A stretch of DNA of 64,000 bases from an uncultured Alphaproteobacteria bacterium (GCA_910577205.1 CAJTMA010000006.1:4770-68769), one strand, 5' to 3'. Counted from the first letter of the stretch, positions 2,192 through 35,916 are shown. The notes: a model not told the origin generated them from the letters alone. Program-made: numbers and translations.

Positions 2192-5100
2192 CTAAATTTC
2201 CTTTACAGTGGTTACGCCGGGCAGACTGCGGATGCGGCTCAAGAAATCCTGATCGGCAAAGCCAAAGCCTCCGGCCAGTTCAATGCGGACATCCCAATCC
2301 CTATTATCTGGTTTAATATATATTTTATTTCTGCCATTTCTATCTTTAGAGAGAATCGCTTTTAATCCGGGAAGTGCCGCGACATCGTTCACCTCAATCT
2401 CCAGACCGTTGGCAACTTCGGCAATCGCTTTGTCAAGCGTGTCGACATTATTAATCATACAGCGCGCGCGGCCATCCTCTTCCTGCTTGTCAATGCTCAT
2501 GCTGACCAGGACTGGCAGACCGGAGCTCAATACATTTTCAAACCTGGCCAGACCTTCAGAAAACAGCAGCCCTTCAAAATTGCTGGTAGCATCCGAAAAC
2601 TCAACAAAAGCGTATTTATTGCCGCTTTTGCTGATACGTTTCTGCACACTGTTGACGCAGCCGGCCAGCTTAGCGCGGATGGTATCGCCGACTTTGATGT
2701 TATGGAAGACTTCTACCGCCGTTTTAACCCCAAGACGCTCCATGCCGCGGGCATAGCTGTCAAGCGGGTGCGCCGACAGATAAAAACCGATGGCTTCGGC
2801 TTCAAGCTTCAATTTTTCCAGTTCCGGCCAATCCGGTTTATCCGCCAGCTTAACCGTGGTATGCAGCTCCTCTGTGCCAAACAATGAAGCCTGCGAACTG
2901 GTTTTTAATTCGCTGGCGGCAGCAATGTGCTGCATAATCGTTTCAATATTGGCAAAAATTTTGCCGCGGCTTTTATCCAGGCAATCAAATGCGCCGGCTT
3001 TGGTTAATTGTTCCATTTGGCGGCGGTTAATCTGCTTGATGTCGGTACGATGGATAAAGTCCGACAAATCTTTATACGGGCCATGGGCTTTGCGTTCGTC
3101 TTCAATTGCCTGCATATTGGCAGCACCAACGCCTTTAATTGCCCCTAAAGCATAGCGGATATTACCGTTTTCGACCGCAAAATCAGCGCCTGATTTGTTA
3201 ATATCGGGTTTCAGCACCTCGAAGCCCATTTTTTTGCATTCTTCTTTATAAATGAGCAGCTTTTCGGTGTTGGTAATATCCAAAGACATTACCGCGCACA
3301 TAAATTCGACCGGGTAATGCGCTTTCAAATAAGCGGTTTGATAAGAAATCAGCGAGTATGCCGCCGCGTGCGATTTGTTAAAGCCATAAGACGCAAACTT
3401 TTCCATTTGGTCAAAAATGGCTTCGGCAACGGATTTGTCAATGCCGTTTTTGATAGCCCCTTCGGTAAACATAATGCGCTGTTTCGGAATTTCATCGCGC
3501 TGTTTTTTACCCATAACTTTACGCAGCTTATCCGCACCGCCCATGGTATAGCCGCCAAGCGCCCGGGCGATGTTCATTACCTGCTCTTGGTAAATCATAA
3601 TACCGTAGGTTTCTTTCAAAATCGGCTCAAGCTGCGGATGAAGATAGGTAATTTCTTCTTCACCGTGTTTGCGTTTAATATAGCTTGGAATATTATCCAT
3701 CGGCCCCGGTCGATAGAGGGACACGATAGCGATTAGATCTTCAAAACGGTCGGGTTTGATTTGCTTATGAACATCTTTCATCCCCGGAGATTCAAACTGG
3801 AAAACAGCGGAAGTATCCCCGCGCTGCAGCAACTCATAGGTCGGACGGTCATCCAGATTGATATTGTCCATATCCAGTTCAACGCCATGCACTTTTTTCA
3901 CCCAGTCGCAGGCGCGTTTAATCACTGTCAGGGTTTTTAGGCCCAAAAAGTCAAACTTAATCAGCCCGGTTTCCTCAACGTATTTCATATCATACTGGGT
4001 CACAGGCATATCAGATTTAGGATCTTTATACAGAGGCACAAGCTGGTCAAGCGGGCGGTCGCCAATCACCACGCCGGCTGCATGGACACCGGATTGACGA
4101 TACAGCCCTTCCAGTTTCATGGCTATATCAAACAGCTTGTTGACCTGCGGGTCGTTTTGGCGCATTTCTTCCAGTTCCGACACTTGATCCAGAGATTCCT
4201 GCAAGGTCGGGTTTTTCCCTTGAACACCGGGGGGAATCATCTTTGAAATACGGTCAGCCTGCGCATAAGGCATTTGCAACACGCGCGCCACATCGCGAAT
4301 CACCGCTTTGGATTGCAGCTTACCATAAGTAATAATCTGCGCCACATGGTCAAAACCATATTTATTCTGCACATATTCAATGGTTTTGTAACGGTTTTCC
4401 TGACAGAAGTCGACGTCAAAGTCCGGCATATTAATACGTTCAGGATTCAGAAAACGCTCAAACAGCAAATCCAGTTTCAACGGGTCAAGGTCCGTCACTT
4501 TTAACGACCAAGCCACAATTGACCCCGCACCGGAACCACGTCCCGGTCCGACCGGTACGCCATGGCCTTTTGACCAGCGGATGAAGTCCGACACGATTAG
4601 GAAGTAGCCGGGGAAGCCCATCTTTTTAATAACGCTTAACTCATATTCCAGACGCGCATAATAACGCTTATCAATTTCAGCCTTTTCTTCCGCTGTCATC
4701 TCCGGCGTGTAGACTTGAGCCTCCATACGCTCTTTTAAGCCTTTGTAGGCCTCTTCGGTAATGAATTCATCTTGCGTTTTGCCGTCCGGACATTCAAAAA
4801 TCGGCAGCAAAGGATCAACTTTTTTTGATAAGTAATTACAGCGCAACGCAATCTGCACTGTTGAATTGACGGCCTCCGGCAAGTCACTGAACAGCTCCAG
4901 CATTTCAGCCTCGGAACGCAAGCGGTTATTAGGCGAAAACTTTTTGCGGTTGTCGTTGGCGACATATTCCCCGGCGGCAATACAAGCCAGCGCATCATGC
5001 GCTTCATACATATCGGCATCAAAGAAAAATGCTTCATTGGTCGCAACCAACGGAATATCATGCTTATAGGCCAGATTAATAAAATCTTCTTCGGTTTTGT

Positions 5101-9247: not shown

Positions 9248-10261
9248 CTAATGGTTAGCTTCGAGATATTTATCAAGCGCAATGCCGATTTTCTTTTCAG
9301 AAGTAACGACCGGAACAACCTTGCCGTCAATCACAACCTCTACAGCGCCAACACGACCGACAGAGAGAATCTTGCCTTCTCCGGCAGGAACTTTATAAAC
9401 ATCTCCCGGCTGTAATACTTTGCTTATCCAAAGCTTGTCTTTATCTTTCACTTCGACCCAAGTTTCCTGATTAATTTTCAAAACGACCCGGGCATCAGCC
9501 TTTACATCTGCCGGAGCTGCAGCCGGTTCAGAAATTTCAGCAACAGGTTCGCTGGCGGCAGGCGCTTCTTCTGCCGGAGCAGCGGGAGAAGGTTCAACAA
9601 AATTGCCTTCATTGACAATCACCTGCGGCACATTTTCAACAGGCGCAGCGGTTGTGGTATCAATAATAACCATCCGTCCGTCTTCAGGTGCGGGAGCTGT
9701 TTCATCCAGCGTTGCAAAATCTTCAACCTGCAAAGGAAAACTATCTGCCGGCGCGTTGTCTACGACAAGCTCTTCCTCGGCAACCGGCTCTTCAACCGTA
9801 TTTTGGCTTTCGCTGTATGCCAGCCAGCCGGCATAGAGGGCAATAATTGCCAGCATACTGATTAACAAATACTTTTTGTTCGGCACAGTCGCTTCAGACT
9901 GCGGTTCTAAAACATAGACGTTATCCGCTTTGGCATTCGCATCTGTTTCTTCCTTGAACAGCTGGACAATGCGGGCGGAATTCAGCCCTAAAAACTCGGC
10001 ATATGACCGGATAAAACCAACACCGTACGGCGGCTCCGGAATATCCTCATAGCAACTGTTTTCAATTGCTTCCAGATAAGACGCACGAATATATAACTCT
10101 TTAGCGATATCTGCAATTTTATAGCCTTTTTTAACACGGGCATCATGCAGCATTCCGCCGACCTTGCCTTCATTGCCAGACAAATTTTCTTTAATATCCT
10201 GCACCGCTGCCGCCATTTTTTCTTCTGCGGCCTCAGCCCCTTTTGTTGTTTCCTTTTTCAC
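9248..10261 (-). CDS. rodZ: RodZ-like cytoskeleton-associated protein (XRE-type HTH with a DUF4115-like C-terminus)
   Basis: The N-terminal HTH (GYKIADIAKELYIRASYLEAIE) is followed by a TM segment, an acidic Pro/Ala-rich linker, and a beta-rich C-terminus. Its position upstream of ispG-hisS matches rodZ-ispG-hisS synteny. Confidence 0.7.
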   Translation of the reverse strand: MKKETTKGAEAAEEKMAAAVQDIKENLSGNEGKVGGMLHDARVKKGYKIADIAKELYIRASYLEAIENSCYEDIPEPPYGVGFIRSYAEFLGLNSARIVQLFKEETDANAKADNVYVLEPQSEATVPNKKYLLISMLAIIALYAGWLAYSESQNTVEEPVAEEELVVDNAPADSFPLQVEDFATLDETAPAPEDGRMVIIDTTTAAPVENVPQVIVNEGNFVEPSPAAPAEEAPAASEPVAEISEPAAAPADVKADARVVLKINQETWVEVKDKDKLWISKVLQPGDVYKVPAGEGKILSVGRVGAVEVVIDGKVVPVVTSEKKIGIALDKYLEANH

Positions 10262-10325
10262 GGTCTTGTCCCTTTAATATAATACTTTAATTCTTGCGAA
10301 TCTGCTGAGCATTGAAACATAGTTT

Positions 10326-12593
10326 TTAATAGATTTCAATACCATGGTCATAAGCATAAGCCATTAATTGCGGACGTAAAGTCCTTTTTTTAGATTTCAA
10401 TAAACTTTTCACATAATCGCTCACTTCTCCGGCATTAATGGTGCGAATCATAGATTTGACCCGCCCGAAAGATGTTCCCGTGGATGACAGGTTACGATAC
10501 CCTAAGCCAATCAGCGCCATCGCTTCAATCGGGTTGGAGGCCATCTCGCCGCACACCGAACAATAAACGCCCGCAGCATCAGCCTTGGCAACAATATCGC
10601 CCATCAGCCGCAAAAACGGCGCAGACAGAACATCGTAACGTTCTGCTAAACGCGGATTGCCGCGATCACAGGCAAAAGTAAACTGCGCTAAATCATTTGT
10701 GCCGATGGAGATAAAATCCGTTTGTTTCAGAACCTCTTCCAGCTGAAAGACAATTGACGGAACTTCCACCATTAAGCCCACGTTGACTTTAGAGGGCACG
10801 GGTGTTCCGCGGCGTTTCTCCTTATCCAGCTCAATCATCAGCGTTTCTTTGGCTTCCTCAAATTCCGACACATCCGAAATCATCGGAAACATCACATTTA
10901 ATTCCTTGCCGGCAGCGGCGCGCAGGAAAGCCCGCATTTGCTTGCGCAAAATTGCCCGGCGGTCCAGCGTAATGCGAATCGAGCGCCAGCCGATGGCCGG
11001 GTTTTCTTCTCCCATAGCGCTCCAGTAAGGCAGCAGCTTGTCCGAACCGACATCCAAACTGCGGAAGATGACTTTTTTGTTTCCGGCCTTGTCCATCAAT
11101 TCCTTGTAATAAGATATCTGGCGCTCGACATCCGGCATTACATCGGAAGCCATAAAAGGGATTTCGGTTCGATATAATCCAACGCCATCACAATTCGTGG
11201 TTTCAATATAATCCAAATCAAACGCTAGACCGACATTGATATATTGCCAGATACGCACGCCGTCCAAGGTTTTAGAGGGCAGTTTTTTCAACTCATCCAA
11301 ACGCGCCTGCAGCTTTTGCTTTTCGGCAATTTTGGTTTTAAACTTCTCCTGAATAACCAAAGACGGATTGATATAGACATAGCCGTCATTACCGTCTACC
11401 GCAACAAAATCGCCGGTTTTAATATCATTAAACAAGCCTTTTATTTTGGCAATAACCGGGATATTCAACGCCTTGGCAACGATGGCAACGTGCATTGTCG
11501 GCGTGCCGTCTTCAATAATCAAACCGCGGATTTTATGATAGTCATAATCCATCAAATCCGCAGGCCCCATGGTTTGAGCCACCACGATAATGTCATTGCT
11601 TTTGATAACTTCGCAAGCCGTACAATAATCGCCGCTCAGATAATTTTGCAAGCGGTCGGCGACATCACGTAAATCATGCAGGCGCTCTTTGAGGTATTGG
11701 TCGTTCGTCGCGGACAAACGGTTCCACATATCTTCATAAGCACGCTCGACGGCGGCTTCGGCTGTCAGCCCGGAATTAACATTATCGGCAATTTTTTTAT
11801 ACCAGCCTTTATCCTTGGCAAACATCCGGTAAGTATCCAGAATGTCAACGTGTTCGCCAATGCCGAGTTTGGTTGAGTTCAGTTTTTCATCCAAATCATC
11901 GTTCATTTGGCGGTGCGCCACCTGCAAACGCTCCAATTCTTTTTCTTTGTCCTCGGCAAAAATTTTGCTGACAGCCTGGCGGCGACGATGAATAACCGCC
12001 TGCCCTAACCCGTAGCCTTTGCTTAAGCTCAGGCCTTTTACCCGCTCCCGGGTAACCAGGCCTCGCTCCTTAATCAGCTCTTTTTTATAATTTGACATTT
12101 CATCGGATGCGACAATCTCCGCCAGCACCATGGCCACGGTTTCAAGAATTTCAATTTCTGCCCGGGAGTACTCATGAATGGCTTTGCTTTGAATAACCAA
12201 TACCCCGATAGAACGATTCCAGCGAATCAGCGGCACGCCGAGAAAACTATGGTAAGCATCCTCTCCCAGTTCAGCCTTATATGCATATTTGGGGTGTTTT
12301 GATGCCTCAGAAGCAGCCAAAGAACGCGTTGTTTTCGCAACTTCACCAATCAGCCCCTCGCCATAACGGATTGTCAGCCGGTGTTCTGCAGTTTCATTCA
12401 GACCGCAAGAGGCAAACAGCTCCAGATAGTTGTCATCTACGGCAACATAAACAGAGGCCGCGTCAGAGGAGGTCTGCTCGGCAATTACCCGGATAATTTT
12501 AGACAGTTTAACCGAAACTTCGTCCTGCCCTTCGGTAACCTGACGCAGTTGTTTAAGGATATCCATAGCCTGATTGACGGCGGGTGACTGCAT
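10326..12593 (-). CDS. ptsP: phosphoenolpyruvate-protein phosphotransferase PtsP (GAF domain plus enzyme I of the nitrogen PTS)
   Basis: 755 aa. An N-terminal GAF-like region precedes enzyme I motifs, including the PEP-utilising His region (GGRTSHAAI-like ...GTNDLAQF) and a C-terminal TIM barrel. Confidence 0.85.
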   Translation of the reverse strand: MQSPAVNQAMDILKQLRQVTEGQDEVSVKLSKIIRVIAEQTSSDAASVYVAVDDNYLELFASCGLNETAEHRLTIRYGEGLIGEVAKTTRSLAASEASKHPKYAYKAELGEDAYHSFLGVPLIRWNRSIGVLVIQSKAIHEYSRAEIEILETVAMVLAEIVASDEMSNYKKELIKERGLVTRERVKGLSLSKGYGLGQAVIHRRRQAVSKIFAEDKEKELERLQVAHRQMNDDLDEKLNSTKLGIGEHVDILDTYRMFAKDKGWYKKIADNVNSGLTAEAAVERAYEDMWNRLSATNDQYLKERLHDLRDVADRLQNYLSGDYCTACEVIKSNDIIVVAQTMGPADLMDYDYHKIRGLIIEDGTPTMHVAIVAKALNIPVIAKIKGLFNDIKTGDFVAVDGNDGYVYINPSLVIQEKFKTKIAEKQKLQARLDELKKLPSKTLDGVRIWQYINVGLAFDLDYIETTNCDGVGLYRTEIPFMASDVMPDVERQISYYKELMDKAGNKKVIFRSLDVGSDKLLPYWSAMGEENPAIGWRSIRITLDRRAILRKQMRAFLRAAAGKELNVMFPMISDVSEFEEAKETLMIELDKEKRRGTPVPSKVNVGLMVEVPSIVFQLEEVLKQTDFISIGTNDLAQFTFACDRGNPRLAERYDVLSAPFLRLMGDIVAKADAAGVYCSVCGEMASNPIEAMALIGLGYRNLSSTGTSFGRVKSMIRTINAGEVSDYVKSLLKSKKRTLRPQLMAYAYDHGIEIY

Positions 12594-15426: not shown

Positions 15427-15795
15427 TTAGAAAAAAGAACGGAGGCAGAGATAAACTACCAGAATAATCACCAACCGGGCAATCCGGCTCAGCCACGGGC
15501 TGCGTTCATAACGCGCGCCGCTCCGCCAAACGGCAAACACCATTGAGATATTATAAGCAATAAACAGACATAAGCTGGTCAGGTAGCAAACCGTATAAAC
15601 CACTATTGAGGTATCCATCTTCAACGGATTAAAATAAGCCGTAAAATACTTGTATATGCTTATCCCCCCCAAGAGCGGCGCTAACAGCGCGCCAAACATT
15701 TTTACAATCAGCAATCCGGCAAGGATGCCGAAGATGCCAAACTTCCAAAAGGTTTCTTTGAGGCCGAACTCGCCGGCTATAAGTTTTTTATACAT
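15427..15795 (-). CDS. hypothetical small membrane protein
   Basis: Three or four hydrophobic helices. I chose the start at the internal Met (MYKKLIAGEF). The upstream extension is K/R-rich and may also be translated. Confidence 0.4.
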   Translation of the reverse strand: MYKKLIAGEFGLKETFWKFGIFGILAGLLIVKMFGALLAPLLGGISIYKYFTAYFNPLKMDTSIVVYTVCYLTSLCLFIAYNISMVFAVWRSGARYERSPWLSRIARLVIILVVYLCLRSFF

Positions 15796-17263: not shown

Positions 17264-18979
17264 CTAAAAATTATCCTCAATCCAGATGTAGTTTTTGACA
17301 CCCAGTTCATTTTGAACTTTGGCAATATATTGGGATTCTTTACCCCATTTGGTATATTTATCAATAAAAGCTTTTGCTTTTTCCGATGATTTTGACAACT
17401 GGACTTCGATTGTTTCTTGCAGCATGGCGTAAATCACATCATGGAATTTATCAAAATTAATATGCAGCTTATGTTCATCATCGAACCAGAAAGCGCCGTT
17501 ATCATGCAGGAAATTGAAATGTATCAATTCGCCAACGCGATGCGCTTCCAGAGGCTGAGCTTTCAAAAACAGCCGGTAAGCAACCCAGGTCGTATAAATC
17601 TTTTTCAGGGTTTCTTCATCAATCACCCCGGCTTTGACATATTCCGGCATAAAAGCAATCGAAACAACGTCTGCTTTTTCTTCTTCGACAGTGCTTTTAT
17701 GCAGCCCCATGGCACGTTGGTAATCATTATCCGGCCCAAGAGAGTGGCCGTTTTCATGCCCGATAACAAACAGGTGGTCAGCTTCCAAGTCAAAATATTT
17801 ATGCAATTCCGGCGCAACCAAACGTTCCAATAATTTCTGATTGCGTTCAGGATCACCACTCATGCGCACCTGACGGTGATAAGCATTACGGCGGCCGCCG
17901 CCGGTTTTTATCGCCAGCTTATCATTGTTCGGCAGGTTTTGCGCTGTGGTTATTGCGCCGCGACACTGGGCATAGTCGCCAGTCAAAGCCACCACATCAA
18001 CATCAACCATGGTCTGTTTTAATTCGCCCGCGTCAGAAACCGACTGATGATAGCTGTCAGCATAGGGCATCAATTTTGCCAGTTCAGGCATATGTTCTTT
18101 GAATTTTAAAATCAAATCCGTGCCCTGTTTATTGATAATACCGACACGAACACCCAGCATATCCTTCGGATTAACTTCAATATTATGTTTATTTAACAAA
18201 TCCATTAACTGAGGGTTATCATAGACTGTCGGGGTCAGCTCATCGTCATAACTTTCCCGTCCCAAAGTGAACTCCAGCTGGTTGTTGTTTTGTAAAACAG
18301 CCCAATGCTTGTCTGCCAGCATATCCATGTCTTCATTATTTTGCAGCAAAGCCTGAGCCTGCCAGCCGAGGTAATCCTTAAAATCCTCATCAGTGGTATA
18401 ATGCGCGGCGACTTCAATTTCGTTAGCCGCACGGGAAAACGCGTCTTTGAAGTATTCGGTGTAGTCAACGGCTTTCAAATCATTCCCATCGCGGCGCACC
18501 ATTGTACGGACGCTCAGAATTTTTTTGACAGCCTCAATTTTGCCTTCGTTAATCATTCGCTGTAAAATGTTATGAAATTCTTCCACGCCCAGGTCAGAAG
18601 GATAGAAATTGCGGCCTTTCGCCCCTTTGATTCCCTTAAAGATTTCCACGGGTTCTAAGTCAAGCCCGTTATGGCCTTCGACACCATGAAACGAAGTGAA
18701 CAATTTAAGCGCTTTAGCAGCGTGAGTATTGGTCTGAGCGGCTTCTTCCAAAGCTTTTTTCATCGGCAGGTTCATCTCATGATCCTGCTCCATGGCAACT
18801 TCATCAAAAATTTTGGCGGCAGCAACGAGGTGTTGAAGAGCCTTTTTGTTGCCTTCGGTCAAATTTTTGTAACCGGCAAAGTCTTTAGACACCAGTTCAA
18901 CCTTGCGCATTTTATTGTTAATAATGTCATCCAGTTGTTCTTCACTCAAATTCAGTTCATATCCGTTAATTTTCATCAC
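17264..18979 (-). CDS. zinc metallopeptidase (gluzincin; DPP III/M49-like)
   Basis: 571 aa. It has an HExxH motif (VIGHENGHSLG) and a downstream EEEKAD Glu-rich motif, like the second motif of M49. The family assignment is tentative. Confidence 0.65.
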   Translation of the reverse strand: MMKINGYELNLSEEQLDDIINNKMRKVELVSKDFAGYKNLTEGNKKALQHLVAAAKIFDEVAMEQDHEMNLPMKKALEEAAQTNTHAAKALKLFTSFHGVEGHNGLDLEPVEIFKGIKGAKGRNFYPSDLGVEEFHNILQRMINEGKIEAVKKILSVRTMVRRDGNDLKAVDYTEYFKDAFSRAANEIEVAAHYTTDEDFKDYLGWQAQALLQNNEDMDMLADKHWAVLQNNNQLEFTLGRESYDDELTPTVYDNPQLMDLLNKHNIEVNPKDMLGVRVGIINKQGTDLILKFKEHMPELAKLMPYADSYHQSVSDAGELKQTMVDVDVVALTGDYAQCRGAITTAQNLPNNDKLAIKTGGGRRNAYHRQVRMSGDPERNQKLLERLVAPELHKYFDLEADHLFVIGHENGHSLGPDNDYQRAMGLHKSTVEEEKADVVSIAFMPEYVKAGVIDEETLKKIYTTWVAYRLFLKAQPLEAHRVGELIHFNFLHDNGAFWFDDEHKLHINFDKFHDVIYAMLQETIEVQLSKSSEKAKAFIDKYTKWGKESQYIAKVQNELGVKNYIWIEDNF

Positions 18980-20546
18980 TCATTATCTCCACTGTTCTAA
19001 AACGATAAACTTTAATATTATCTGACCAAAAACTGGGGTTCATTCCCGCTTTAATCTTTAAATTTTTCATAAAATCGGCTTTGTCCGGCAACTCTGCCCA
19101 GACAGAGGGCAAAAATAATCCCTGGCGGTCGCCGTCGCGAATAATGACACCGTCTACACCGGGCTGTATTCGGTTCATTAAATCCGCTTCATTATGGTAA
19201 TGTATGGGTTCAAGACCGGTCAAAAGCGAAACGGAATAGCTCAGGCTGGGGAGTTCGGCTTCGCTTAACGGCTCGAAACGGTTATCTTCCATGGCAGCAC
19301 GATAAGCATTGTCGGCAATATCATGGGCTATGGCGATATGCGGCATAATCGTTCCGATACAGCCGCGCAAATCGCCATTTTTCTTCAAAGTAACAAAGGA
19401 AGCCCCTTTATTAAAAAGGTCGTCAGGGTAGTCTTTGCGCGCCGGGGAAAAATGCTTATGTTCAGCGACAGCTTCCCTTAATGTCCGGGAAACAATTTGC
19501 CGTATTTCACCTTTATAGGTTTCCGCAAAAAGGCGCAGGTTTTCTGTTTCCCTTTCCAGGGCTGAACGCTGCGTATCCTGATGCGGATTTGCTTCGCCGG
19601 AAAAACTCCATGCCCCATAACCAACAACGCGCTCTTTATCTCCGGCGGTATCCCCGGAGTTAACCAGTTCCAGCATTTCCGGGCGAAGGGATTGTTTGCC
19701 GGCAAGCAGTAATGCCGTATTTATCCCTGCTGCGCCGCATGACATATGATTTTCAATTTCCGGCTGTTTGCCGGCTACCATTTCTGCTGTTTTTGTATCC
19801 AATTCTTTGGCTGTTTCATAGTCTTCATAATGCGACAAGTCAGCCGAAACCACCAGCAGAGTATCCGGCTGGCGCAACAAAGGTTCAAGCGCGACAGACA
19901 ATTCCTGCGGAGAGGCATCACCATAAACAACGGGAATTATTTTGAATTTTTTTAATACTTTCTGCAAAAAAGGCAGCTGCACCTCCAGGCTGTGTTCATT
20001 TTTATGCGCCAGATCAAAAAACTTAAATCCGGGTTGGCTGGTCAAAGCAGCGGACAATTCCTTATTTACCTGCACTGCTCCCAGCGGCGTCACAAAATAG
20101 TCAGTTTTAGGCAAAGCCGCTCCTTTAAAGGCAACATGGTGCGACGGCCCTAATAAAATGACATTTTTTATTTTTCCGGCATATTTAGCCAGCCGCCCGT
20201 AAGCTTTCGCGGCGGTTGCTGCTGAATAGATATAGCCGGCATGAGGCACGATAAGGATACGCGGCTGATATTCTGACAGAGAACCGGCTTTAGACAGATA
20301 GTGGGCTACCTCGCTGTCAAGGCGGGTTTTGTCTTCCGAATAAAAAATCCCGGCAACCGCCGGATTACGGTATTGAGCCAATTCATCCTCCTTGGGGCGG
20401 TAATCGGTTATCAATTGCGAATTAGACGAGATATGCGCATCCAGGCTGCAATAGTTCAGCCACAGCACGGCAATTGCCGCCAACGCTATTAAAATATAGT
20501 TCGTCAGCTTTTTATAATCAATGTCGGATTTGTCTTTCATCGGCAC
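18966..20546 (-). CDS. membrane-anchored fusion protein: Memo-like (AmmeMemoRadiSam protein B) plus AMMECR1 domain
   Basis: An N-terminal TM segment (ILIALAAIAVLWL) is followed by Memo motifs (AGIFYSED, ILIVPHAGYIYSAATA, EHSLEVQLPFL, VVSADLSHY, CGAAGI). The C-terminal AMMECR1 region has GASFVTLKKNGDLRGCIGTI and GLFLPSVW. Confidence 0.8.
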   Translation of the reverse strand: MPMKDKSDIDYKKLTNYILIALAAIAVLWLNYCSLDAHISSNSQLITDYRPKEDELAQYRNPAVAGIFYSEDKTRLDSEVAHYLSKAGSLSEYQPRILIVPHAGYIYSAATAAKAYGRLAKYAGKIKNVILLGPSHHVAFKGAALPKTDYFVTPLGAVQVNKELSAALTSQPGFKFFDLAHKNEHSLEVQLPFLQKVLKKFKIIPVVYGDASPQELSVALEPLLRQPDTLLVVSADLSHYEDYETAKELDTKTAEMVAGKQPEIENHMSCGAAGINTALLLAGKQSLRPEMLELVNSGDTAGDKERVVGYGAWSFSGEANPHQDTQRSALERETENLRLFAETYKGEIRQIVSRTLREAVAEHKHFSPARKDYPDDLFNKGASFVTLKKNGDLRGCIGTIMPHIAIAHDIADNAYRAAMEDNRFEPLSEAELPSLSYSVSLLTGLEPIHYHNEADLMNRIQPGVDGVIIRDGDRQGLFLPSVWAELPDKADFMKNLKIKAGMNPSFWSDNIKVYRFRTVEIMSDEN

Positions 20547-20609
20547 AACCTCTCCCTTACCGGATTTTATTGCCAGAATAAGGGAGAGTCATTTAATTTT
20601 TTGCTAATA

Positions 20610-22718
20610 TCAGCGCTTTTGTGCGTTTTTTCTTGCGTTTAGAACGGATATTTCCCGGATATTCAACCGGGCATTTCTATTCTTATGCGTCAAGATGGCA
20701 TAAGAATAAGGGCGCAGGGCATAAGTTTCGCCAGCCTCATGTTCCCGCGGCTCTTTGGCAAACTCGCCGTCAGCCGTATCAAAAACCAGCTGCCATTTGC
20801 CGCCGCCGGGAGGTGACGGCAAGGTATAATCAACCGTGTGATAGTTGTCGCCCGATACCAAAACAAGAAAATCATCATCTTGGGGGCGGCCGTTAGAGCT
20901 GCTGCCGTTGAGCATATACGCACCGGTTTTGGCATAGCCGCAATTCCAATCCGCCGCTTCCATTTCTTTACCGTCCGGACGCAGCCAGGTGATATCTTTC
21001 GCACCATTTGCGGCGACCGGTTTACCATCAAAGAGTTTTAAATCGGTCAACACTGGGTGGCTTTTGCGAAAGGCATTCAAGCGGCAGATATTCAAAAATA
21101 ATTGCTTCTTACGCTCAGAAAGCTCATTCCAATCCAGCCAGACCGTCGTGTCATCAATACAATACGGATTATTATTGGCATCAGAATAGCCGCGCTCATC
21201 ACCGTTGCGCATCAAGGGGATGCCTTTGCTTAAAATATTAAAAGCGATATCGCTGTTGGCTCGCCGGAACAATTCTTCTTCGGTGTAAGATTTGGCATAA
21301 ATATCCGGACTGCCATCCCGTCCCTCTTCGCCATTTGGATAAGTGTTTTTCGGATATTGGTAAGCGCCCAGCAGGCTGAAACCGTCATGGCTGCGCCCTG
21401 TGCCGATAACCGCGCTTTCATTGGCGGCAGGATTGACATTTGACGACCCGGCAACCTGATTGCCAAACTGCCCAATCAGGCCGTTGCGGCTGCTAAAAAA
21501 TTCACCGACAAAGTTTTTACGGGTGTCACTCCATTCTTTAACCCCCGGCACTAAGGCTGCAAAACGACCGCTGAAATTACCGCCCATCGCGCTCCACGGC
21601 TCAACATACATTTCCATCCCCAATTTTTCGGTGGCAAAGCGCAGCTCCTGAATAAATGCGCCATTCTCCTGAAAACGCCCGAAATTATCAAGCGCATTAT
21701 CGCCGCCCAAATCCCAACGGATGCCGTCTACGCCCAGTTTATGCATTAACAGCAGATAATGGCGGAGAATTTCATGCCCGGCCTCGCTGTCTAAATTAAA
21801 ATTATTATCACAGCCCGTCGAATTCATAAATTTCCCGGGGTTATTCCCCTCCTGACGGTAATAATTGGGGCTGTCCAGCAATTTGAATGATAAAGACTGA
21901 TTTCTGTCCCCGGTTGCCGCGTGTTCGCCGGTATGGTTAAACACCGCGTCAACGGTCACTTTCAGACCGGCTTTGTGCAACTTGTTAACAACAGCGGCAA
22001 AGTCTTGCAAATTGCCATACCGGGGATCGATTGCAAAAAAGCAATACGGGTTATAGCCCCAGCTGTCCGTCCGCCCCTCAGTAACAGGGATTTGCCGGCC
22101 GCAACAGGTTGGCGCGATAGGCATAAGCTCAATATTATTAACACCGAGGCGCTCAAAATACTTCAAACTCCAGCTGTCGGCAATCCCTGATAACCTGCCG
22201 CGCTTGTCTTCCGGCAAATGGAAGTTGAGCTTAGAAAAGTTTTTAATATGGGTTTCATAAATTATGTTTTCGCCAGGCGCAAAATGCGGACGCTGCTGCA
22301 AATAAGGATATTTTTCAGAGTCAAAAATGCGGTTCAAATCAACCACAACCGATTTAGGCATAACCGGAGCACTGTCTTCGTGGTTTTCAATCAACAGACG
22401 TTCGGATGTCCAGTCGTCCATGGTTTTGGAAACTTCCAAACTATAAGGGTCGACAGCAAGTTTTGCCGGATTAAAAAACAAACCGCGCGACGGATTATAT
22501 TCTCCGTGTGCGCGGTAACCGTATTTTTGACCGGATTTGATTTCCGGCAGGGTGACTGACCAGATATTGCCTTCCCCTTTTTGCAATTGGATACGGGTTT
22601 CCTCTTTTTCATCCGGCGAAAAGAGGCACAGTTCTATCTTCTCAGCATATTCGGACTTAACACTGAATGTGGTTTGGCCGTTTTGGTAATGTGCTCCTAA
22701 GAAAGGATGATTGCCCAT
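20610..22718 (-). CDS. glgX: glycogen debranching enzyme (isoamylase-type GH13)
   Basis: 702 aa. An N-terminal CBM48-like region precedes GH13 catalytic regions (VDAVFNHTGE, GVDGIRWDLG, EPWSAMGG). Confidence 0.85.
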   Translation of the reverse strand: MGNHPFLGAHYQNGQTTFSVKSEYAEKIELCLFSPDEKEETRIQLQKGEGNIWSVTLPEIKSGQKYGYRAHGEYNPSRGLFFNPAKLAVDPYSLEVSKTMDDWTSERLLIENHEDSAPVMPKSVVVDLNRIFDSEKYPYLQQRPHFAPGENIIYETHIKNFSKLNFHLPEDKRGRLSGIADSWSLKYFERLGVNNIELMPIAPTCCGRQIPVTEGRTDSWGYNPYCFFAIDPRYGNLQDFAAVVNKLHKAGLKVTVDAVFNHTGEHAATGDRNQSLSFKLLDSPNYYRQEGNNPGKFMNSTGCDNNFNLDSEAGHEILRHYLLLMHKLGVDGIRWDLGGDNALDNFGRFQENGAFIQELRFATEKLGMEMYVEPWSAMGGNFSGRFAALVPGVKEWSDTRKNFVGEFFSSRNGLIGQFGNQVAGSSNVNPAANESAVIGTGRSHDGFSLLGAYQYPKNTYPNGEEGRDGSPDIYAKSYTEEELFRRANSDIAFNILSKGIPLMRNGDERGYSDANNNPYCIDDTTVWLDWNELSERKKQLFLNICRLNAFRKSHPVLTDLKLFDGKPVAANGAKDITWLRPDGKEMEAADWNCGYAKTGAYMLNGSSSNGRPQDDDFLVLVSGDNYHTVDYTLPSPPGGGKWQLVFDTADGEFAKEPREHEAGETYALRPYSYAILTHKNRNARLNIREISVLNARKNAQKR

Positions 22719-22797: not shown

Positions 22798-23466
22798 TTA
22801 AAGAGAATTCAAAACGCGGTAAAATTCTTCAAAACTATTAAAGTAAACAATTTTTGTATCCGGTTCGCCCTCATCTCCCCAGATGGAACGCCCTATCCTT
22901 ATCGGCAGGGCATTGGCCGCCTGAGCAGAATCGCTGTCCATCGGGCTGTCACCAATCATCCAGACTTTCTGCGGCGTTATCTCTTCCGGTTTAAGCAACC
23001 CCTTCAAAGTGTGATATATCTGGTCGGGAAACGGTTTGTCGCGGACAGCCTCATGACCGCAAACCACACGGAAAAACAAGGATGGGTCAAAAAGCAGCGG
23101 CAATTCGATATTCATCAGGCGGCGATCTTTATTGCTCATCACCATCATCGGAATTCCTCGCTTATTAAAAAACTCCAGCACTTTGTGAACTCCGGGGAAT
23201 GTGCTGATTTTCCCACGGACAACGCTGCTGTAGATTTCGACATAGCGTTCATAGGCCTCTGCCGCATTTTCCTCCCCGAAAATCCGGGGGAAATTATCCA
23301 TAAACGAAAGGTTGGGATCACGCTTGTCCCGCACTTGTGTCCAGTCCGGCAAGCCGTATTCGGCTAAAACCCGATTAACCGCCAACACCAGCGTATTACG
23401 GCTTTCGGCCAGCGTATTATCCCAATCAAATATCACATATTGCAATTCAGAAACATTCAGCCGCAT
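22798..23466 (-). CDS. HAD-superfamily hydrolase (phosphoglycolate phosphatase-like)
   Basis: HAD motif I is FDWDNTL. Motif III/IV is MIGDSPMDSDSA. Confidence 0.75.
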   Translation of the reverse strand: MRLNVSELQYVIFDWDNTLAESRNTLVLAVNRVLAEYGLPDWTQVRDKRDPNLSFMDNFPRIFGEENAAEAYERYVEIYSSVVRGKISTFPGVHKVLEFFNKRGIPMMVMSNKDRRLMNIELPLLFDPSLFFRVVCGHEAVRDKPFPDQIYHTLKGLLKPEEITPQKVWMIGDSPMDSDSAQAANALPIRIGRSIWGDEGEPDTKIVYFNSFEEFYRVLNSL

Positions 23467-23519
23467 TTACCCTCACTTTTCGTTGTCAGATAAAAAACCC
23501 TGCCGAAGCAGGGTTTTTA

Positions 23520-33043: not shown

Positions 33044-34324
33044 TTACGCATTCTTACCAATTTTGGTTTTGCCGCCAAGGTAAGGACGCAGCTTAACCGG
33101 AATATTAACCGTTCCGTCAGCATTCTGGTGGTTTTCAATAAACGGTACCAGCGCCCGCGGAGTGGCAATACCGGTATTGTTCAGCGTATGAACATATTTT
33201 ACTTTGCCATCAGCATTGTCGCGGTAACGCAGATTGGTGCGACGCGCCTGCCAATCAGTAATATTAGAGCAGGAATGGGTTTCGCGATAGCAGTTTTGTG
33301 ACGGAACCCAAGCTTCCAAATCATATTGGCGGTACTTCGGCGCCCCCATATCCCCGGTGCAAATATCCAGCACCTGATATGGCAATTCCAAATCCTGCAG
33401 CACTTCTTCAGAAATAGCCAACAGCTTTTTATGCCATTTGTCACTTTCGTTGACATCATTTTTGCAGATGACAAACTGCTCGGTTTTCATAAACTGGTGG
33501 ACGCGAACCAAGCCGCGGGTATCTTTACCGGCAGCTCCGGCTTCGCGGCGGAAACAGGGTGAAAATCCGGCATAAAGAATCGGCAATTCGTTTTCGTTCA
33601 AAATTTCATCAGCACGCAACGAGTTCAGAATCAACTCGGCTGTGCCCGACAGATACAAATCATCTGCCGGCATATAATAAATTTCATCACGAGAAAACGG
33701 CAAATAACCCTGGCCATACAGCGGGCGCTCTTTGGAAATTGAGGGCACGGTCACCACGGTAAACCCATGGGCGCGCAATTTATCCAACACCATCATATGA
33801 ATTGCCAGCTCCAATTGAGCCAAATCATTTTTAATGGCATAAGTGCGAGAACCGCAGACTTTTGCAATGCGTTCCATCTCGCTCCAGTCATTAAGCTCCA
33901 TCAGTTCAATATGGTCGCGGGGCGTAAAGTCAAATTTGGTCGGTTCGCCCACTTTGCGCAGAACAACGTTGGCGCATTCATCCGGGCCGACCGGGCAATC
34001 CGGGCTGGGATAGTTTGGCATACGCAGCATCAATTCATCAAACTGTGCCTGAATTTTGCCGAGTTCTTCCTGTTCTTTTTTCAACTCTTCGCCTAATTCT
34101 TTACTTTTGGCAATGATTGCCGGGCGTTCCTCAGCCGAGGCAGATTTAATCGAATTACTCAGGCGGTTCTTTTCTTCAGCCAGAGCCTGGGAAGAGGTTT
34201 TAAGCTTGTTCATATCCAAGTAGGTTGATATTAAATTATCGACACTTTCCGAAGAGAAACCTTTTTTAGCAAGGCATTGTTTAACTTGATCCTGATTATC
34301 GATAATATGTTTAATATCCAACAT
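33044..34324 (-). CDS. serS: serine--tRNA ligase
   Basis: 426 aa with an N-terminal coiled-coil arm and a class II catalytic core. Confidence 0.93.
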   Translation of the reverse strand: MLDIKHIIDNQDQVKQCLAKKGFSSESVDNLISTYLDMNKLKTSSQALAEEKNRLSNSIKSASAEERPAIIAKSKELGEELKKEQEELGKIQAQFDELMLRMPNYPSPDCPVGPDECANVVLRKVGEPTKFDFTPRDHIELMELNDWSEMERIAKVCGSRTYAIKNDLAQLELAIHMMVLDKLRAHGFTVVTVPSISKERPLYGQGYLPFSRDEIYYMPADDLYLSGTAELILNSLRADEILNENELPILYAGFSPCFRREAGAAGKDTRGLVRVHQFMKTEQFVICKNDVNESDKWHKKLLAISEEVLQDLELPYQVLDICTGDMGAPKYRQYDLEAWVPSQNCYRETHSCSNITDWQARRTNLRYRDNADGKVKYVHTLNNTGIATPRALVPFIENHQNADGTVNIPVKLRPYLGGKTKIGKNA

Positions 34325-34654
34325 TCGTCTTTGTCCTATTTATCTTTATTTTATATGTTTTAACTTTTATGAAGAATAGCAATTTTTATGATAAATACAA
34401 GACCAAACAGACTCTAAAGCACAAAAAACCTCTTTTTCCACTATTCCCAATAGTGCCGACAACCAAGAATCGGCTATGTCATTACCTTAGATAAACTGGT
34501 CGATATTATGGATAATAATGTTTGTTTTAAACCGTTCAGCCCGGTATTAGAATCCGGGCTGAATATTGTTTGGAAAAAACATCAGGTCTTTTCGCCGGCG
34601 GCCAAACTCTTCTTAAATGCCGTTCGGGAAAAATTTGAAAGCTTTTCCTAAGCG

Positions 34655-35056: not shown

Positions 35057-35134
35057 AAAGCATCTCCTTATATTAGGGTTATCAGATACTTTTAACATAT
35101 ACTTATCTTTGCAAAATACCAGATATTTTATTAC

Positions 35135-35524: not shown

Positions 35525-35797
35525 ATGTTTTCCTTTGTTCCAAACCTCTTTATATTTTACAAGAAAATTTTCAAATAACCAAGCAGAAAAAACACCCGAT
35601 AAGCTATCGGGTGTCACAGAGATTAATTGTTTAGCAAGTTATCAAATGCATGATAATACTGCCGCAGAAGAATTCAGGCTTTCCCGGCAAAATGAATATA
35701 ATCGTAAAAAAGGGCAATTAAAGAGTGATATAATTGCTAGAATTAAAGGAATTTAGAAACAAGAGAAAAATAATTAACATTTTCAGCAAAATTATGC

Positions 35798-35826
35798 TTG
35801 ATTTTTTTGCAAAGGGCGTGTATGTT
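35798..35826 (+). promoter_or_regulatory. candidate sigma70 promoter for the tRNA-Thr gene
   Basis: TTGATT-17 nt-TATGTT, ending 12 nt before the tRNA 5' end. Confidence 0.35.
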
Positions 35827-35838
35827 TCCTTCGTTGTC

Positions 35839-35913: not shown

Positions 35914-35916
35914 TTA

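What the first reader, a model, noticed from the sequence alone, without database searches (positions are those of the whole stretch)
18966..20546. Membrane-anchored Memo-AMMECR1 fusion without a radical-SAM partner
Memo-like protein (AmmeMemoRadiSam protein B) and AMMECR1 protein (protein A) normally occur as separate genes, often next to a radical-SAM enzyme. Here both domains are fused in one 526-aa polypeptide behind an N-terminal TM anchor. The neighbours are a metallopeptidase and glgX, and there is no radical-SAM gene in the window. The fusion supports a direct functional coupling of the two domains and places the system at the membrane.
Basis: partly seen in the sequence, partly recalled or inferred. 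Interest (0 to 1): 0.55.

Follow-up and report, generated by a model that had tools for sequence, protein, structure and literature searches.

The report
Membrane-anchored Memo–AMMECR1 fusion, gut Alphaproteobacteria
This is a real, conserved gene for a membrane-anchored protein joining a Memo domain to an AMMECR1 domain; the join itself is common and already annotated, but this gut-bacterial branch has gained an anchor, lacks the usual radical-SAM neighbour and is always paired with a zinc hydrolase and a phosphatase.

Summary
A single minus-strand ORF (18966-20540; true start is the ATG, 524 aa) encodes an N-terminal transmembrane helix, a Memo domain (TIGR04336, 250 bits) and an AMMECR1 domain (TIGR04335, 185 bits). 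It is not a frameshift artefact: the identical protein occurs on 31 contigs, and more than 100 homologue clusters share the architecture.

The Memo-AMMECR1 fusion is not unusual. 146 of the 150 best 50%-identity representatives are at least 428 aa, the length of fusions, and NCBI and JGI already name them. A triple fusion with the radical-SAM enzyme also exists.

Three features are specific to this monophyletic clade of gut and rumen Alphaproteobacteria (Ca. Scatocola-like):
- A conserved uncleaved N-terminal anchor with an LNY…SSN motif.
- No TIGR04337 radical-SAM gene nearby: 0 of 13 distinct contexts, against 59 of 70 loci elsewhere (p = 5e-9).
- A conserved cassette of HAD phosphatase, fusion and M49/DPP III-like zinc hydrolase. 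The hydrolase start overlaps the fusion stop by 11 nt.

glgX is a recent insertion, not a partner.

Three things remain open: whether a radical-SAM gene exists elsewhere in the genome, which side of the membrane the domains face, and the substrate. I rate this a new variant of a known kind, of modest interest.

The parts
18966..20540 (-). CDS of the TM-Memo-AMMECR1 fusion protein (524 aa, ATG start; stop TAA at 18966-18968)
   Evidence: ORF. Start from RBS spacing and homologue N-termini. The exact protein is on 31 contigs. Domains.
20549..20558 (-). Shine-Dalgarno-like AAGGGAGAGG, 8 nt upstream of the ATG at 20540
   Evidence: Read directly from the sequence.
20451..20507 (-). N-terminal transmembrane helix (residues ~12-30, LTNYILIALAAIAVLWLNY); an uncleaved anchor
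   Evidence: Conserved hydrophobic segment in 113/113 full-length homologues scored. AF2 helix 9-38. No AxA or lipobox motif after it.
20421..20459 (-). Conserved juxtamembrane motif LNY(C)…H.SSN (N29 and N40 invariant)
   Evidence: Invariant columns in alignments A1 and A2; coordinates.
19611..20363 (-). Memo domain (AmmeMemoRadiSam protein B family) with invariant H100, H134, D234, H237 and C268
   Evidence: Pfam and NCBIfam. phmmer alignment to MEMO1 maps H100/H134/D234/H237 to His49/His81/Asp189/His192. His49/His81/Cys244 are Cu ligands in 7L5C (PMC9477392). Invariance.
19563..19598 (-). Short flexible inter-domain linker (residues ~315-326)
   Evidence: AF2 pLDDT <50 at 317-324. Least conserved segment, 21-37% identity against 54-65% for the domains. 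The reading frame is continuous here in all homologues.
18990..19490 (-). AMMECR1 domain (AmmeMemoRadiSam protein A family) with LRGCIG (391-396), D419xRF and R472-Q473…L477-P478
   Evidence: Pfam and NCBIfam. Invariant residues. Foldseek match to 1vaj, TM 0.79. Coordinates.
17264..18976 (-). M49/DPP III-like zinc hydrolase (570 aa). Its ATG overlaps the fusion's stop by 11 nt (ATGAAAATTAA). Zn motifs HENGH (17744-17758) and EEEKAD (17669-17686).
   Evidence: PDB 6eom_A E 1.4e-33 and 5zum_A E 2e-12. Overlap read. The same 11-nt overlap is seen in relatives (same arrangement). Motifs conserved in 113-114 of 114 homologues, with no TM segment. No Pfam or NCBIfam hit.
22798..23466 (-). HAD-IA family hydrolase (222 aa, DWDNT motif), a conserved upstream member of the cassette
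   Evidence: Pfam HAD_2 E 1e-26. Gph-like but below equivalog cutoffs. Directly upstream of the fusion in relatives that lack glgX.
20610..22718 (-). glgX-like debranching enzyme. It is a lineage-specific insertion between HAD and the fusion, and not part of the conserved cassette.
   Evidence: Present in P0005 contexts (73% identity). Absent in P0027, P0076, P0109 and the L013-L021 contexts.
23493..23518 (.). Bidirectional terminator-like hairpin (AAAAACCCTGCCGAAGCAGGGTTTTT) between accD and HAD; probable upstream boundary of the transcription unit
   Evidence: Pattern scan, 11-bp stem.

Best explanation
The gene encodes one polypeptide with three parts: an uncleaved N-terminal membrane anchor, a Memo domain and an AMMECR1 domain. 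A flexible linker of about 12 residues joins the two domains. Both domains belong to the AmmeMemoRadiSam 'B' and 'A' families and keep every signature residue. In Memo these are the His/His/Asp/His/Cys metal site. In AMMECR1 they are the LRGCIG cysteine and the conserved Arg/Asp residues. Both domains are therefore presumably active.

The B-A fusion is a common, already annotated architecture that normally sits beside a PflA-like radical-SAM enzyme (TIGR04337). This protein belongs to a monophyletic sub-family confined to uncultured gut and rumen Alphaproteobacteria (Ca. Scatocola-like Rhodospirillales). That sub-family differs in three linked ways:
- It gained the anchor plus a conserved juxtamembrane LNY…SSN motif.
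- The radical-SAM gene is no longer next to it.
- It sits in a conserved cassette of HAD phosphatase, fusion and M49/DPP III-like zinc hydrolase, with the hydrolase translationally coupled through an 11-nt overlap.

Inferred mechanism (not shown): the anchor holds the tandem catalytic domains at the cytoplasmic membrane, more likely on the periplasmic face. There the metal-dependent Memo domain and the AMMECR1 domain act one after the other on the same membrane- or envelope-associated small molecule, possibly an isoprenoid or lipid-linked compound. They do so without the radical-SAM step, as in eukaryotes, which have Memo and AMMECR1 but no such enzyme. The soluble HAD and M49-like enzymes would then handle cytoplasmic steps of the same pathway.
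For: **Shown**
- Domains and cutoffs.
- Fold: pLDDT 90, with TM 0.80 to MEMO1 and 0.79 to PH0010.
- Invariant catalytic and metal residues across 119 sequences, mapped to MEMO1 His49/His81/Asp189/His192, which are known Cu/Fe ligands (PMC9477392; PDB titles).
- The anchor is conserved in all full-length homologues scored.
- The fusion is widespread across bacteria and archaea and already named.
- Neighbours outside the clade are genuine TIGR04337 enzymes, scoring 350-645 bits against a cutoff of 220. They lie within 0.9 kb of the Memo gene in 59 of 70 loci.
- The clade has none in the window, 24 loci and 13 distinct contexts; Fisher p = 4.7e-9.
- In the sister lineage the radical-SAM gene, when present, is still adjacent.
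- The clade is monophyletic and nested among radical-SAM-linked fusions.
- HAD and M49-like neighbours occur only in the clade and persist while the outer flanks differ.
- The 11-nt overlap is seen in the window and in relatives.
- M49 motifs are intact in 113-114 of 114 homologues.

**Evidence for the periplasmic face**
- K+R count is 2.67 on the N-flank against 1.35 on the C-flank. N exceeds C in 72% of homologues and is lower in 8%.
- No signal-peptidase or lipobox motif follows the helix.
- About 8% of other fusion representatives carry Sec-type signal peptides or lipoboxes. Archaeal versions pair lipobox or TM fusions with Tat-signal radical-SAM enzymes. So extracytoplasmic Memo-AMMECR1 proteins recur.
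- One exported fusion lies in an MlaD/PqiC-type lipid-transport operon.
Against: - Absence of the radical-SAM gene is shown only for about 10-64 kb around the gene, not for whole genomes.
- Three of four sister-group loci also lack an adjacent radical-SAM gene, although Gastranaerophilales as a group do possess the enzyme. Unlinked or variable arrangements are therefore possible.
- The topology call rests on a modest charge bias, and both flanks of the helix carry Lys/Arg.
- Translational coupling to a signal-less, soluble M49-like protein would fit a cytoplasm-facing enzyme that forms a complex with it.
- The clade is phylogenetically narrow: only two representatives at 50% identity. Part of the conserved gene order could be inherited synteny and not a functional link.
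- No substrate, activity or expression data exist. The lipid/isoprenoid idea rests on my recollection of the abstract of Burroughs et al. 2019 (J Biol Chem 294:10211), which I could not read, and on one context.
- The low pTM (0.55) gives no support for a fixed composite active site.
Confidence: 0.65

Rival explanations
1. This is a canonical three-component AmmeMemoRadiSam system. The radical-SAM enzyme is still encoded in these genomes, just not next to the fusion, and it works with the fusion in trans.
For: - The fusion scores far above the TIGR04336 and TIGR04335 cutoffs, and those models were built on radical-SAM-linked systems.
- 11 of 70 loci outside the clade also lack an adjacent radical-SAM gene. 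These include a Gastranaerophilales locus (L053), although other Gastranaerophilales have the enzyme.
- Only 10-64 kb of roughly 2-Mb genomes was examined.
Against: - Where the enzyme exists it is almost always within 0.9 kb of the Memo gene (59/70).
- It is absent from all 13 distinct clade contexts (p = 4.7e-9).
- If the domains face the periplasm, as the charge bias suggests, a cytoplasmic radical-SAM enzyme could not reach them after export.
- Eukaryotes show that Memo and AMMECR1 can persist without this enzyme (established knowledge).
Confidence: 0.25
2. The anchor tethers the catalytic domains on the cytoplasmic face (N-out, C-in). There they form a membrane-bound complex with the co-translated M49-like hydrolase, and perhaps the HAD phosphatase.
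For: - The 11-nt overlap with a soluble, signal-less M49-like protein is conserved. Such coupling often marks stoichiometric partners.
- The short N-tail (about 11 residues) carries conserved acidic residues (DIDY), which can favour N-tail translocation.
- Most family members are cytoplasmic, with no signal.
- Lys/Arg also occur just after the helix.
Against: - The N-flank has twice as many Lys/Arg as the C-flank, usually directly before the helix.
- Exported versions of the same fusion recur in other lineages, so the domains can work outside the cytoplasm.
Confidence: 0.35
3. The HAD-fusion-M49 arrangement is inherited synteny in a narrow clade with no functional meaning. The fusion acts alone.
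For: - The clade collapses to two 50%-identity representatives.
- Serine dehydratase, the DEAD-box gene and other housekeeping genes are often syntenic too.
- glgX could insert between HAD and the fusion without apparent harm.
- The M49-like gene shows a different divergence pattern from the fusion: 87% against 55% identity to L013/L014.
Against: - The outer flanks differ between clade members (L011: DNA pol III; L009: SerRS/ABC), while HAD-fusion-M49 persists.
- The 11-nt overlap is retained at 49-59% fusion identity.
- M49-like and HAD homologues are found beside the fusion only in this clade.
Confidence: 0.3
4. An assembly or frameshift artefact joined two separate genes.
For: None found. 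Split Memo and AMMECR1 genes do exist in other lineages (20 of 70 loci).
Against: - The identical 524-aa protein is on 31 contigs from NCBI, ENA and Logan assemblies.
- 119 homologue clusters have the same continuous ORF.
- The linker is in frame and aligned in all of them.
- AF2 models one chain with a defined linker.
Confidence: 0.01

Closest known systems
Cytoplasmic AmmeMemoRadiSam B/A fusion proteins with an adjacent TIGR04337 radical-SAM enzyme (e.g. Burkholderiales L057, Gastranaerophilales L095-L097)
   Same: - Same two domains in the same order, with a short linker.
- Same invariant residues.
- 35-42% identity over residues ~58-519.
- Same NCBIfam models.
   Different: - They have no N-terminal anchor or juxtamembrane motif.
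- The radical-SAM gene lies within 0.9 kb.
- They have no M49-like or HAD neighbour.
Eukaryotic MEMO1 and AMMECR1 (separate proteins, no dedicated radical-SAM partner)
   Same: - Same folds: TM 0.80 to MEMO1 structures, with the metal ligands His49/His81/Asp189/His192 conserved.
- They apparently function without the radical-SAM enzyme (absence in eukaryotes is from general knowledge).
   Different: - They are separate, soluble cytosolic proteins.
- Identity is only about 23%.
- The window protein scores much better against the prokaryotic TIGR04336 model (250 bits) than against the MEMO1-type NF001987 model (168 bits, below its cutoff of 295).
Archaeal export-type systems: lipobox or TM Memo-AMMECR1 fusion plus Tat-signal radical-SAM enzyme (L080 Altiarchaeota, L081 Euryarchaeota SM23-78, L083 Woesearchaeota)
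   Same: The fusion has an N-terminal membrane or export signal, so the system is associated with the membrane or the extracytoplasmic space.
   Different: - They keep the adjacent radical-SAM enzyme, which itself has a twin-arginine signal (TIGR04337, 352-358 bits).
- They are a different, independently derived lineage.
- They have no M49 or HAD partners.
Radical SAM-Memo-AMMECR1 triple fusion (L065, Rhodospirillaceae MAG, 913 aa)
   Same: An alphaproteobacterial fusion of system components.
   Different: It contains the radical-SAM domain and has no anchor.
DPP III (M49) enzymes with a pentapeptide HExxH motif: Caldithrix abyssi (6EOM, PMC5805324) and Corallococcus (5ZUM, PMC9820243). This comparison is for the partner gene.
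   Same: Full-length similarity (E 1.4e-33 and 2e-12), a pentapeptide HExxH plus an EExxA(D/E) second motif, and a size of about 560 aa.
   Different: - The partner is not detected by Pfam or NCBIfam models.
- Its motif is HENGH or HENAH.
- It is genomically coupled to a Memo-AMMECR1 protein.
- No activity data exist.

Membership tests
Memo / AmmeMemoRadiSam system protein B (PF01875, TIGR04336) | Profile score above the curated cutoff over the full domain | tested here: met
   PF01875: 169.9 bits (cutoff 27), profile positions 2-267 of 269. TIGR04336: 250.3 bits (cutoff 26), positions 1-269 of 270.
Memo / AmmeMemoRadiSam system protein B (PF01875, TIGR04336) | Conserved metal-site residues (MEMO1 His49, His81, Asp189, His192, Cys244) | tested here: met
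   H100, H134, D234, H237 and C268 are invariant in 119 sequences. Four are mapped by phmmer alignment to 3bcz/7kq8. C268↔Cys244 is inferred from the SCG motif position and the Foldseek superposition, not read residue by residue.
AMMECR1 / AmmeMemoRadiSam system protein A (PF01871, TIGR04335) | Profile score above the curated cutoff, plus the LRGCIG signature | tested here: met
   PF01871: 153.4 bits (cutoff 25). TIGR04335: 184.7 bits (cutoff 99). In LRGCIG (391-396), L391, G393 and C394 are invariant and R392, I395 and G396 are conserved in at least 90% of sequences.
Three-component AmmeMemoRadiSam system | A TIGR04337 radical-SAM enzyme encoded with (normally adjacent to) proteins A and B | tested here: not met
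   No hit at E<1e-3 in the 64-kb window or in 24 clade loci. By contrast, 59 of 70 non-clade loci have one within 0.9 kb.
Three-component AmmeMemoRadiSam system | A TIGR04337 radical-SAM enzyme present anywhere in the same genome | not testable with these tools
   Whole genomes of the clade cannot be scanned. A search seeded with the sister-group enzyme was saturated by Gastranaerophilales hits.
Peptidase family M49 (DPP III), for the overlapping partner gene 17264-18976 | Significant full-length similarity to characterised DPP III enzymes, plus both zinc-binding motifs | tested here: met
   6eom_A E 1.4e-33 (two stretches covering residues 38-544) and 5zum_A E 2e-12. HENGH at 407-411 and EEEKAD at 431-436, conserved in 113-114 of 114 homologues.
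Peptidase family M49 (DPP III), for the overlapping partner gene 17264-18976 | Match to the curated family profile | tested here: not met
   No M49 family appears among Pfam-A matches even at E ≤ 10, and there are no NCBIfam matches. I file it as 'M49-like', not as a member.
Peptidase family M49 (DPP III), for the overlapping partner gene 17264-18976 | Dipeptidyl-peptidase activity | not testable with these tools
   This needs an enzyme assay.
Signal-anchored (type II) or exported protein | N-terminal hydrophobic helix with no cleavage site, and more positive charge on the N-terminal flank | tested here: inconclusive
   The helix is conserved and no AxA or lipobox motif follows it. K+R is 2.67 (N-flank) against 1.35 (C-flank), with N greater than C in 72%. 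No dedicated topology predictor was available.

The most novel reading that the evidence does not exclude
Gut Alphaproteobacteria carry a radical-SAM-independent, periplasm-facing Memo-AMMECR1 enzyme. Together with a dedicated DPP III-like zinc hydrolase and a HAD phosphatase, it forms a previously undescribed pathway that modifies an envelope lipid, isoprenoid or other membrane-bound metabolite. If so, this would be a compact bacterial model for how Memo and AMMECR1 work together without a radical-SAM enzyme, as they do in eukaryotes. The biochemical function of both proteins is still unknown there, despite links to disease.
Probability: 0.2. Interest if true: 0.6.

Novelty: new variant of a known kind. 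Interest (0 to 1): 0.35.

Why it matters
Memo (MEMO1) and AMMECR1 are conserved from archaea to humans and are linked to cancer cell motility and to an X-linked syndrome. Neither has an established biochemical reaction.

Their prokaryotic association with each other and with a radical-SAM enzyme is the main clue to function, and it is already known. This locus adds a natural variant in which three things hold:
- The radical-SAM gene is no longer linked to the pair.
- The pair is tied to the membrane.
- Two new enzymes, a DPP III-like hydrolase and a HAD phosphatase, are consistently co-encoded.

If the radical-SAM gene is truly absent from these genomes, the clade shows that the Memo-AMMECR1 pair can work alone in bacteria, as in eukaryotes. 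The new partners and the membrane location would then narrow the search for a substrate.

The organisms are abundant in gut metagenomes: the P0027 protein is on more than 1000 contigs. Metatranscriptomic and heterologous-expression tests are therefore feasible.

On present evidence this is an incremental refinement of a known system, not a surprise.

Tried and rejected
- **Frameshift or assembly artefact:** rejected.
- **GTG start, 526 aa:** rejected in favour of the ATG at 20540.
- **glgX as a functional neighbour:** rejected, because it is a lineage-specific insertion.
- **Lipoprotein or cleavable signal peptide for the N-terminus:** LNYC is not a lipobox and no AxA site follows the helix. 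I read it as an uncleaved anchor, but I had no dedicated predictor.
- **The UPF0004+Radical_SAM gene 4 kb downstream in L009/L010 as the missing partner:** rejected. It is a MiaB/RimO-type methylthiotransferase fragment, not a PflA-like TIGR04337 enzyme, and it gives no phmmer hit.
- **Looking for an unlinked alphaproteobacterial radical-SAM enzyme:** I seeded the word-index search with the sister-group enzyme (L046). The top 120 hits were all Gastranaerophilales-type at 65% identity or more, so the result was uninformative.
- **Literature:**
  - 'AmmeMemoRadiSam' returns only passing mentions.
  - The key prior analysis, Burroughs et al. 2019 (J Biol Chem 294:10211, PMC6664185), is not held. 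I therefore could not check whether TM-anchored or M49-linked variants were already described there. My statement of its conclusions comes from memory of the abstract.
- **Foldseek against afdb50:** unavailable.
- **Fixed composite active site between the two domains:** not supported. pTM is 0.55, the linker is disordered, and no coordinates were available to inspect.
- **Pfam or NCBIfam assignment of the 570-aa partner:** none. Its family came only from PDB sequence matches.

Full report
**1. What is in the sequence**

A minus-strand ORF runs from 20546 to 18966. Three observations place the true start two codons downstream, at the ATG at 20540 (524 aa, MKDKSD…). First, the Shine-Dalgarno-like AAGGGAGAGG (20549-20558) lies 8 nt before the ATG but only 2 nt before the GTG. 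Second, every homologue begins at the equivalent Met. Third, the exact 524-aa sequence is on record on 31 contigs from NCBI, ENA and Logan assemblies.

Pfam finds Memo at residues 62-312 (E 8e-50) and AMMECR1 at 353-519 (E 5e-45). NCBIfam finds AmmeMemoRadiSam protein B (TIGR04336, 250 bits, cutoff 26) and protein A (TIGR04335, 185 bits, cutoff 99).

An AlphaFold2 model built on 119 homologues has mean pLDDT 90. It shows a long N-terminal helix (residues 9-38), a Memo domain, a disordered linker (317-324) and an AMMECR1 domain. Its pTM is 0.55, so the relative orientation of the domains is not fixed. Foldseek matches human MEMO1 (7kq8, 3bcz; TM 0.80) and Pyrococcus PH0010 (1vaj; TM 0.79).

**2. 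Not an artefact, and both domains look active**

The word-index search returned 120 clusters at 51-97% identity. All carry both Pfam domains, and 118 are full-length (511-541 aa). In alignments of 34 and of 119 sequences the reading frame is continuous through the linker.

The invariant residues include H100, H134, D234, H237 and C268 in the Memo domain. A phmmer alignment to MEMO1 maps the first four to His49, His81, Asp189 and His192. His49, His81 and Cys244 coordinate Cu(I) in PDB 7L5C (PMC9477392).

In the AMMECR1 domain the LRGCIG motif (L391, G393 and C394 invariant), D419-x-R421-F422 and R472-Q473…L477-P478 are conserved. The linker is the least conserved part, at 21-37% identity against 54-65% for the domains.

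**3. The fusion itself is common and already annotated**

A scan of one genome per GTDB species found at least 599 related loci. I analysed the best 80. Ten belong to the window's clade.

Of the other 70 loci, 50 encode Memo and AMMECR1 as a single ORF of about 445-500 aa and 20 encode them as adjacent separate genes. This sample is biased toward fusions, because the query was itself a fusion. The 70 loci span:
- Beta- and Gammaproteobacteria
- Myxococcota
- Planctomycetota
- Cyanobacteria/Gastranaerophilales
- Puniceicoccales
- Bdellovibrionota
- several archaeal phyla

The exhaustive search of 1.84 billion 50%-identity representatives gave 2729 proteins at E ≤ 1e-30. Of the best 150, 146 are at least 428 aa, the length of fusions.

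NCBI names such proteins 'AmmeMemoRadiSam system protein B', and JGI names them 'protein B/protein A' or 'PH0010 family'. One Rhodospirillaceae MAG (L065) even encodes radical SAM + Memo + AMMECR1 as a single 913-aa ORF, scoring 627, 240 and 177 bits on the three TIGR models.

The Memo-AMMECR1-radical-SAM association was described by Burroughs et al. 2019, as cited in PMC7159879. I could not obtain that paper.

**4. What is specific to this clade**

(a) *Anchor.* All 113 full-length homologues that could be scored have a hydrophobic helix (mean Kyte-Doolittle 2.46 over 17 residues) preceded by a tail of about 11 residues. The helix is followed by a conserved LNY(C)…H.SSN motif in which N29 and N40 are invariant. 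Nothing after the helix resembles a signal-peptidase site or a lipobox, so I read it as an uncleaved anchor.

(b) *No linked radical-SAM gene.* I confirmed by NCBIfam that the CxxxCxxC neighbours in other lineages are TIGR04337 enzymes (350-645 bits against a cutoff of 220). I then used three of them as phmmer queries against all six-frame segments.
- Outside the clade, 59 of 70 loci have a strong hit within 0.9 kb of the Memo gene.
- In the 64-kb window and in all 24 clade loci (13 distinct contexts with useful flanks), there is no hit even at E<1e-3.
- Fisher's exact test gives p = 4.7e-9.

In Gastranaerophilales, part of the sister group, the radical-SAM gene is divergently adjacent to a 447-450-aa fusion whenever it is present.

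(c) *New conserved neighbours.* In every clade context with enough flank, the fusion is followed by a 569-572-aa gene. The start of that gene overlaps the fusion's stop by 11 nt. In the window the overlap reads ATGAAAATTAA, with the ATG at 18976.

This protein has no Pfam or NCBIfam match and is annotated only as 'hypothetical protein'. It does match two DPP III enzymes that have the atypical pentapeptide zinc motif:
- Caldithrix abyssi 6EOM, E 1.4e-33
- Corallococcus 5ZUM, E 2e-12

(PMC5805324 and PMC9820243.)

HENGH or HENAH is present in 113 of the 114 full-length homologues and HEIIH in one. EExKAD is present in 113. None has a hydrophobic segment.

A HAD-IA hydrolase (Gph-like, below the equivalog cutoffs) lies directly upstream in most clade members. 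L-serine dehydratase often follows downstream. The outer flanks differ between members.

glgX lies between HAD and the fusion only in the window and in its relatives at 73% identity. It is absent from more distant clade members, so it is an insertion and not a partner.

A strong bidirectional hairpin at 23493-23518 separates accD from HAD. This is consistent with a transcription unit that begins at HAD.

(d) *Phylogeny.* In a neighbour-joining tree of the shared 460-residue region, the 11 anchored sequences are monophyletic and nested among radical-SAM-linked bacterial fusions. The tree has no bootstrap values, so it is only indicative. The sister group consists of a Puniceicoccales locus, an uncultured lineage and two cyanobacterial (Melainabacteria-type) loci. 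Three of those four also lack an adjacent radical-SAM gene.

The organisms are uncultured gut and rumen Alphaproteobacteria. Their sources include Ca. Scatocola (Rhodospirillales), 'Azospirillaceae' MAGs, rumen MAGs and Hadza gut MAGs.

**5. Which side of the membrane?**

The positive-inside rule favours N-in/C-out, which would put the catalytic domains in the periplasm. K+R averages 2.67 in the N-flank and 1.35 in the first 15 residues after the helix. The N-flank count exceeds the C-flank count in 72% of homologues and is lower in 8%.

Independent support comes from other lineages, which show that this fusion can be exported:
- About 14 of 148 representatives carry N-terminal hydrophobic or export signals. 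These include apparently cleavable Sec signals (P0530, P0538, P0548), a lipobox (P0534) and anchors (P0517, P0518).
- Three archaeal loci pair a lipobox or TM fusion with a radical-SAM enzyme that begins with a twin-arginine motif, (S/T)RREFIKKAA followed by a hydrophobic stretch.
- One exported fusion lies after MlaD and PqiC-like lipid-transport genes.

Against this reading, the M49-like and HAD partners have no signal peptides, and tight translational coupling would suit a cytoplasmic complex. I put the periplasmic orientation at roughly 60%.

**6. Mechanism**

*Shown:*
- The protein is anchored and has two catalytically intact domains joined by a flexible linker.
- It is genomically uncoupled from the radical-SAM enzyme.
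- It is coupled to a zinc hydrolase and a phosphatase.

*Inferred:*
- The two domains act one after the other on one membrane- or envelope-associated small molecule.
- The Memo domain uses its His/His/Asp/His/Cys metal site.
- The radical-SAM step has been dispensed with, as in eukaryotes.
- The soluble HAD and M49-like enzymes handle cytoplasmic steps of the same pathway.

A lipid or isoprenoid substrate is a guess. It is consistent with the membrane location, with the MlaD context and with my recollection that Burroughs et al. 2019 linked Memo contexts to nucleotide-base and isoprenoid modification. I could not verify that recollection.

**7. Comparison with known systems, and verdict**

By every sequence criterion, the protein is a member of the Memo/protein B and AMMECR1/protein A families. 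It fails the system-level criterion of an adjacent radical-SAM enzyme. Presence of that enzyme elsewhere in the genome could not be tested.

I therefore classify it as a new variant of a known kind: an anchored, radical-SAM-unlinked, M49/HAD-associated sub-family of the AmmeMemoRadiSam B/A fusion.

Interest is modest (0.35). A specialist would not be surprised by the fusion. The clade-specific rewiring is a useful, testable lead to the unknown biochemistry of Memo and AMMECR1. It is not, on present evidence, a discovery in its own right.

Noticed in passing
L080:8755-9888 and 9839-11365; L081:1048-2244 and 2360-3847; L083:1522-2742 and 3614-5014: In three archaeal MAGs (Altiarchaeota, Euryarchaeota SM23-78, Woesearchaeota) the TIGR04337 radical-SAM enzyme starts with a twin-arginine (Tat) type signal, (S/T)RREFIKKAA followed by a hydrophobic stretch. 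The adjacent Memo-AMMECR1 fusion starts with a lipobox-like signal (…LVGC, …ITSC) or a TM helix. An apparently exported radical-SAM enzyme is unusual and may deserve its own study.
   Followed up: partly
L065:8606-11347: A single 913-aa ORF in a Rhodospirillaceae MAG fuses the radical-SAM enzyme, Memo and AMMECR1 (TIGR04337 627 bits, TIGR04336 240 bits, TIGR04335 177 bits).
   Followed up: yes
P0500, P0530, P0531, P0534, P0538, P0548, P0517, P0518; L099:2873-4411; L098:878-2374: About 8% of 50%-identity fusion representatives carry Sec-type signal peptides, lipoboxes or anchors. P0530 lies directly after MlaD, a PqiC-like ABC_trans_aux protein and a 242-aa lipoprotein, with no radical-SAM gene in the 5.9-kb contig. 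P0548 is overlapped downstream by a multi-TM, spermidine-synthase-like protein. The N-terminus of the ORF upstream of the anchored fusion in L088 looks similar, but I did not align the two.
   Followed up: partly
P0471 (1186 aa): A Memo-AMMECR1 module (residues 710-1171) is fused behind a large multi-TM N-terminal domain whose soluble region I guessed to be repeat-rich; no domain search was run. This is another membrane-embedded variant.
   Followed up: no
window 17264-18976 versus L013:7384-9096 and L014:11562-13274: The M49-like protein is 87% identical to its L013/L014 orthologues. The fusion next to it is only 55-56% identical, HAD 54-57% and serine dehydratase 75-77%. Against L015 the M49-like protein is 65% and the fusion 59%. 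The uneven divergence suggests recombination or transfer of the M49-like gene, or much stronger constraint on it.
   Followed up: partly
window 17264-18976: The M49-like family has 2710 homologues at E ≤ 1e-5, with a very uniform length of 570-571 aa among the best hits. It has no Pfam or NCBIfam model and is annotated only as 'hypothetical protein'. It is a candidate for a new family model.
   Followed up: partly
window 20610-22718: The glgX-like gene scores 417 bits on TIGR02100, well below the 641-bit equivalog cutoff. It is inserted into the HAD-fusion cassette only in the window's near relatives. It may be a divergent debranching enzyme acquired recently.
   Followed up: partly
window 34000-44300: A low-GC stretch (0.31-0.42) surrounds a tRNA gene (35839-35910, +). 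It carries a META-domain protein, several ORFs with no Pfam match, an EamA transporter and a 1118-aa autotransporter (40090-43446, -). It could be a genomic island.
   Followed up: partly
L018 (JAISVX010000002.1): This contig is labelled 'Lactobacillaceae bacterium' MAG, but it carries the alphaproteobacterial HAD-fusion-M49-serine dehydratase cassette (51-72% identity to the window). It is probably mis-binned or mislabelled.
   Followed up: no
window 15427-15795 and relatives (e.g. L001:14750-15118): A conserved 122-aa membrane protein with no family match, followed by an ORF of about 51 aa, lies after serine dehydratase in the window and in many clade members. Its function is unknown.
   Followed up: no
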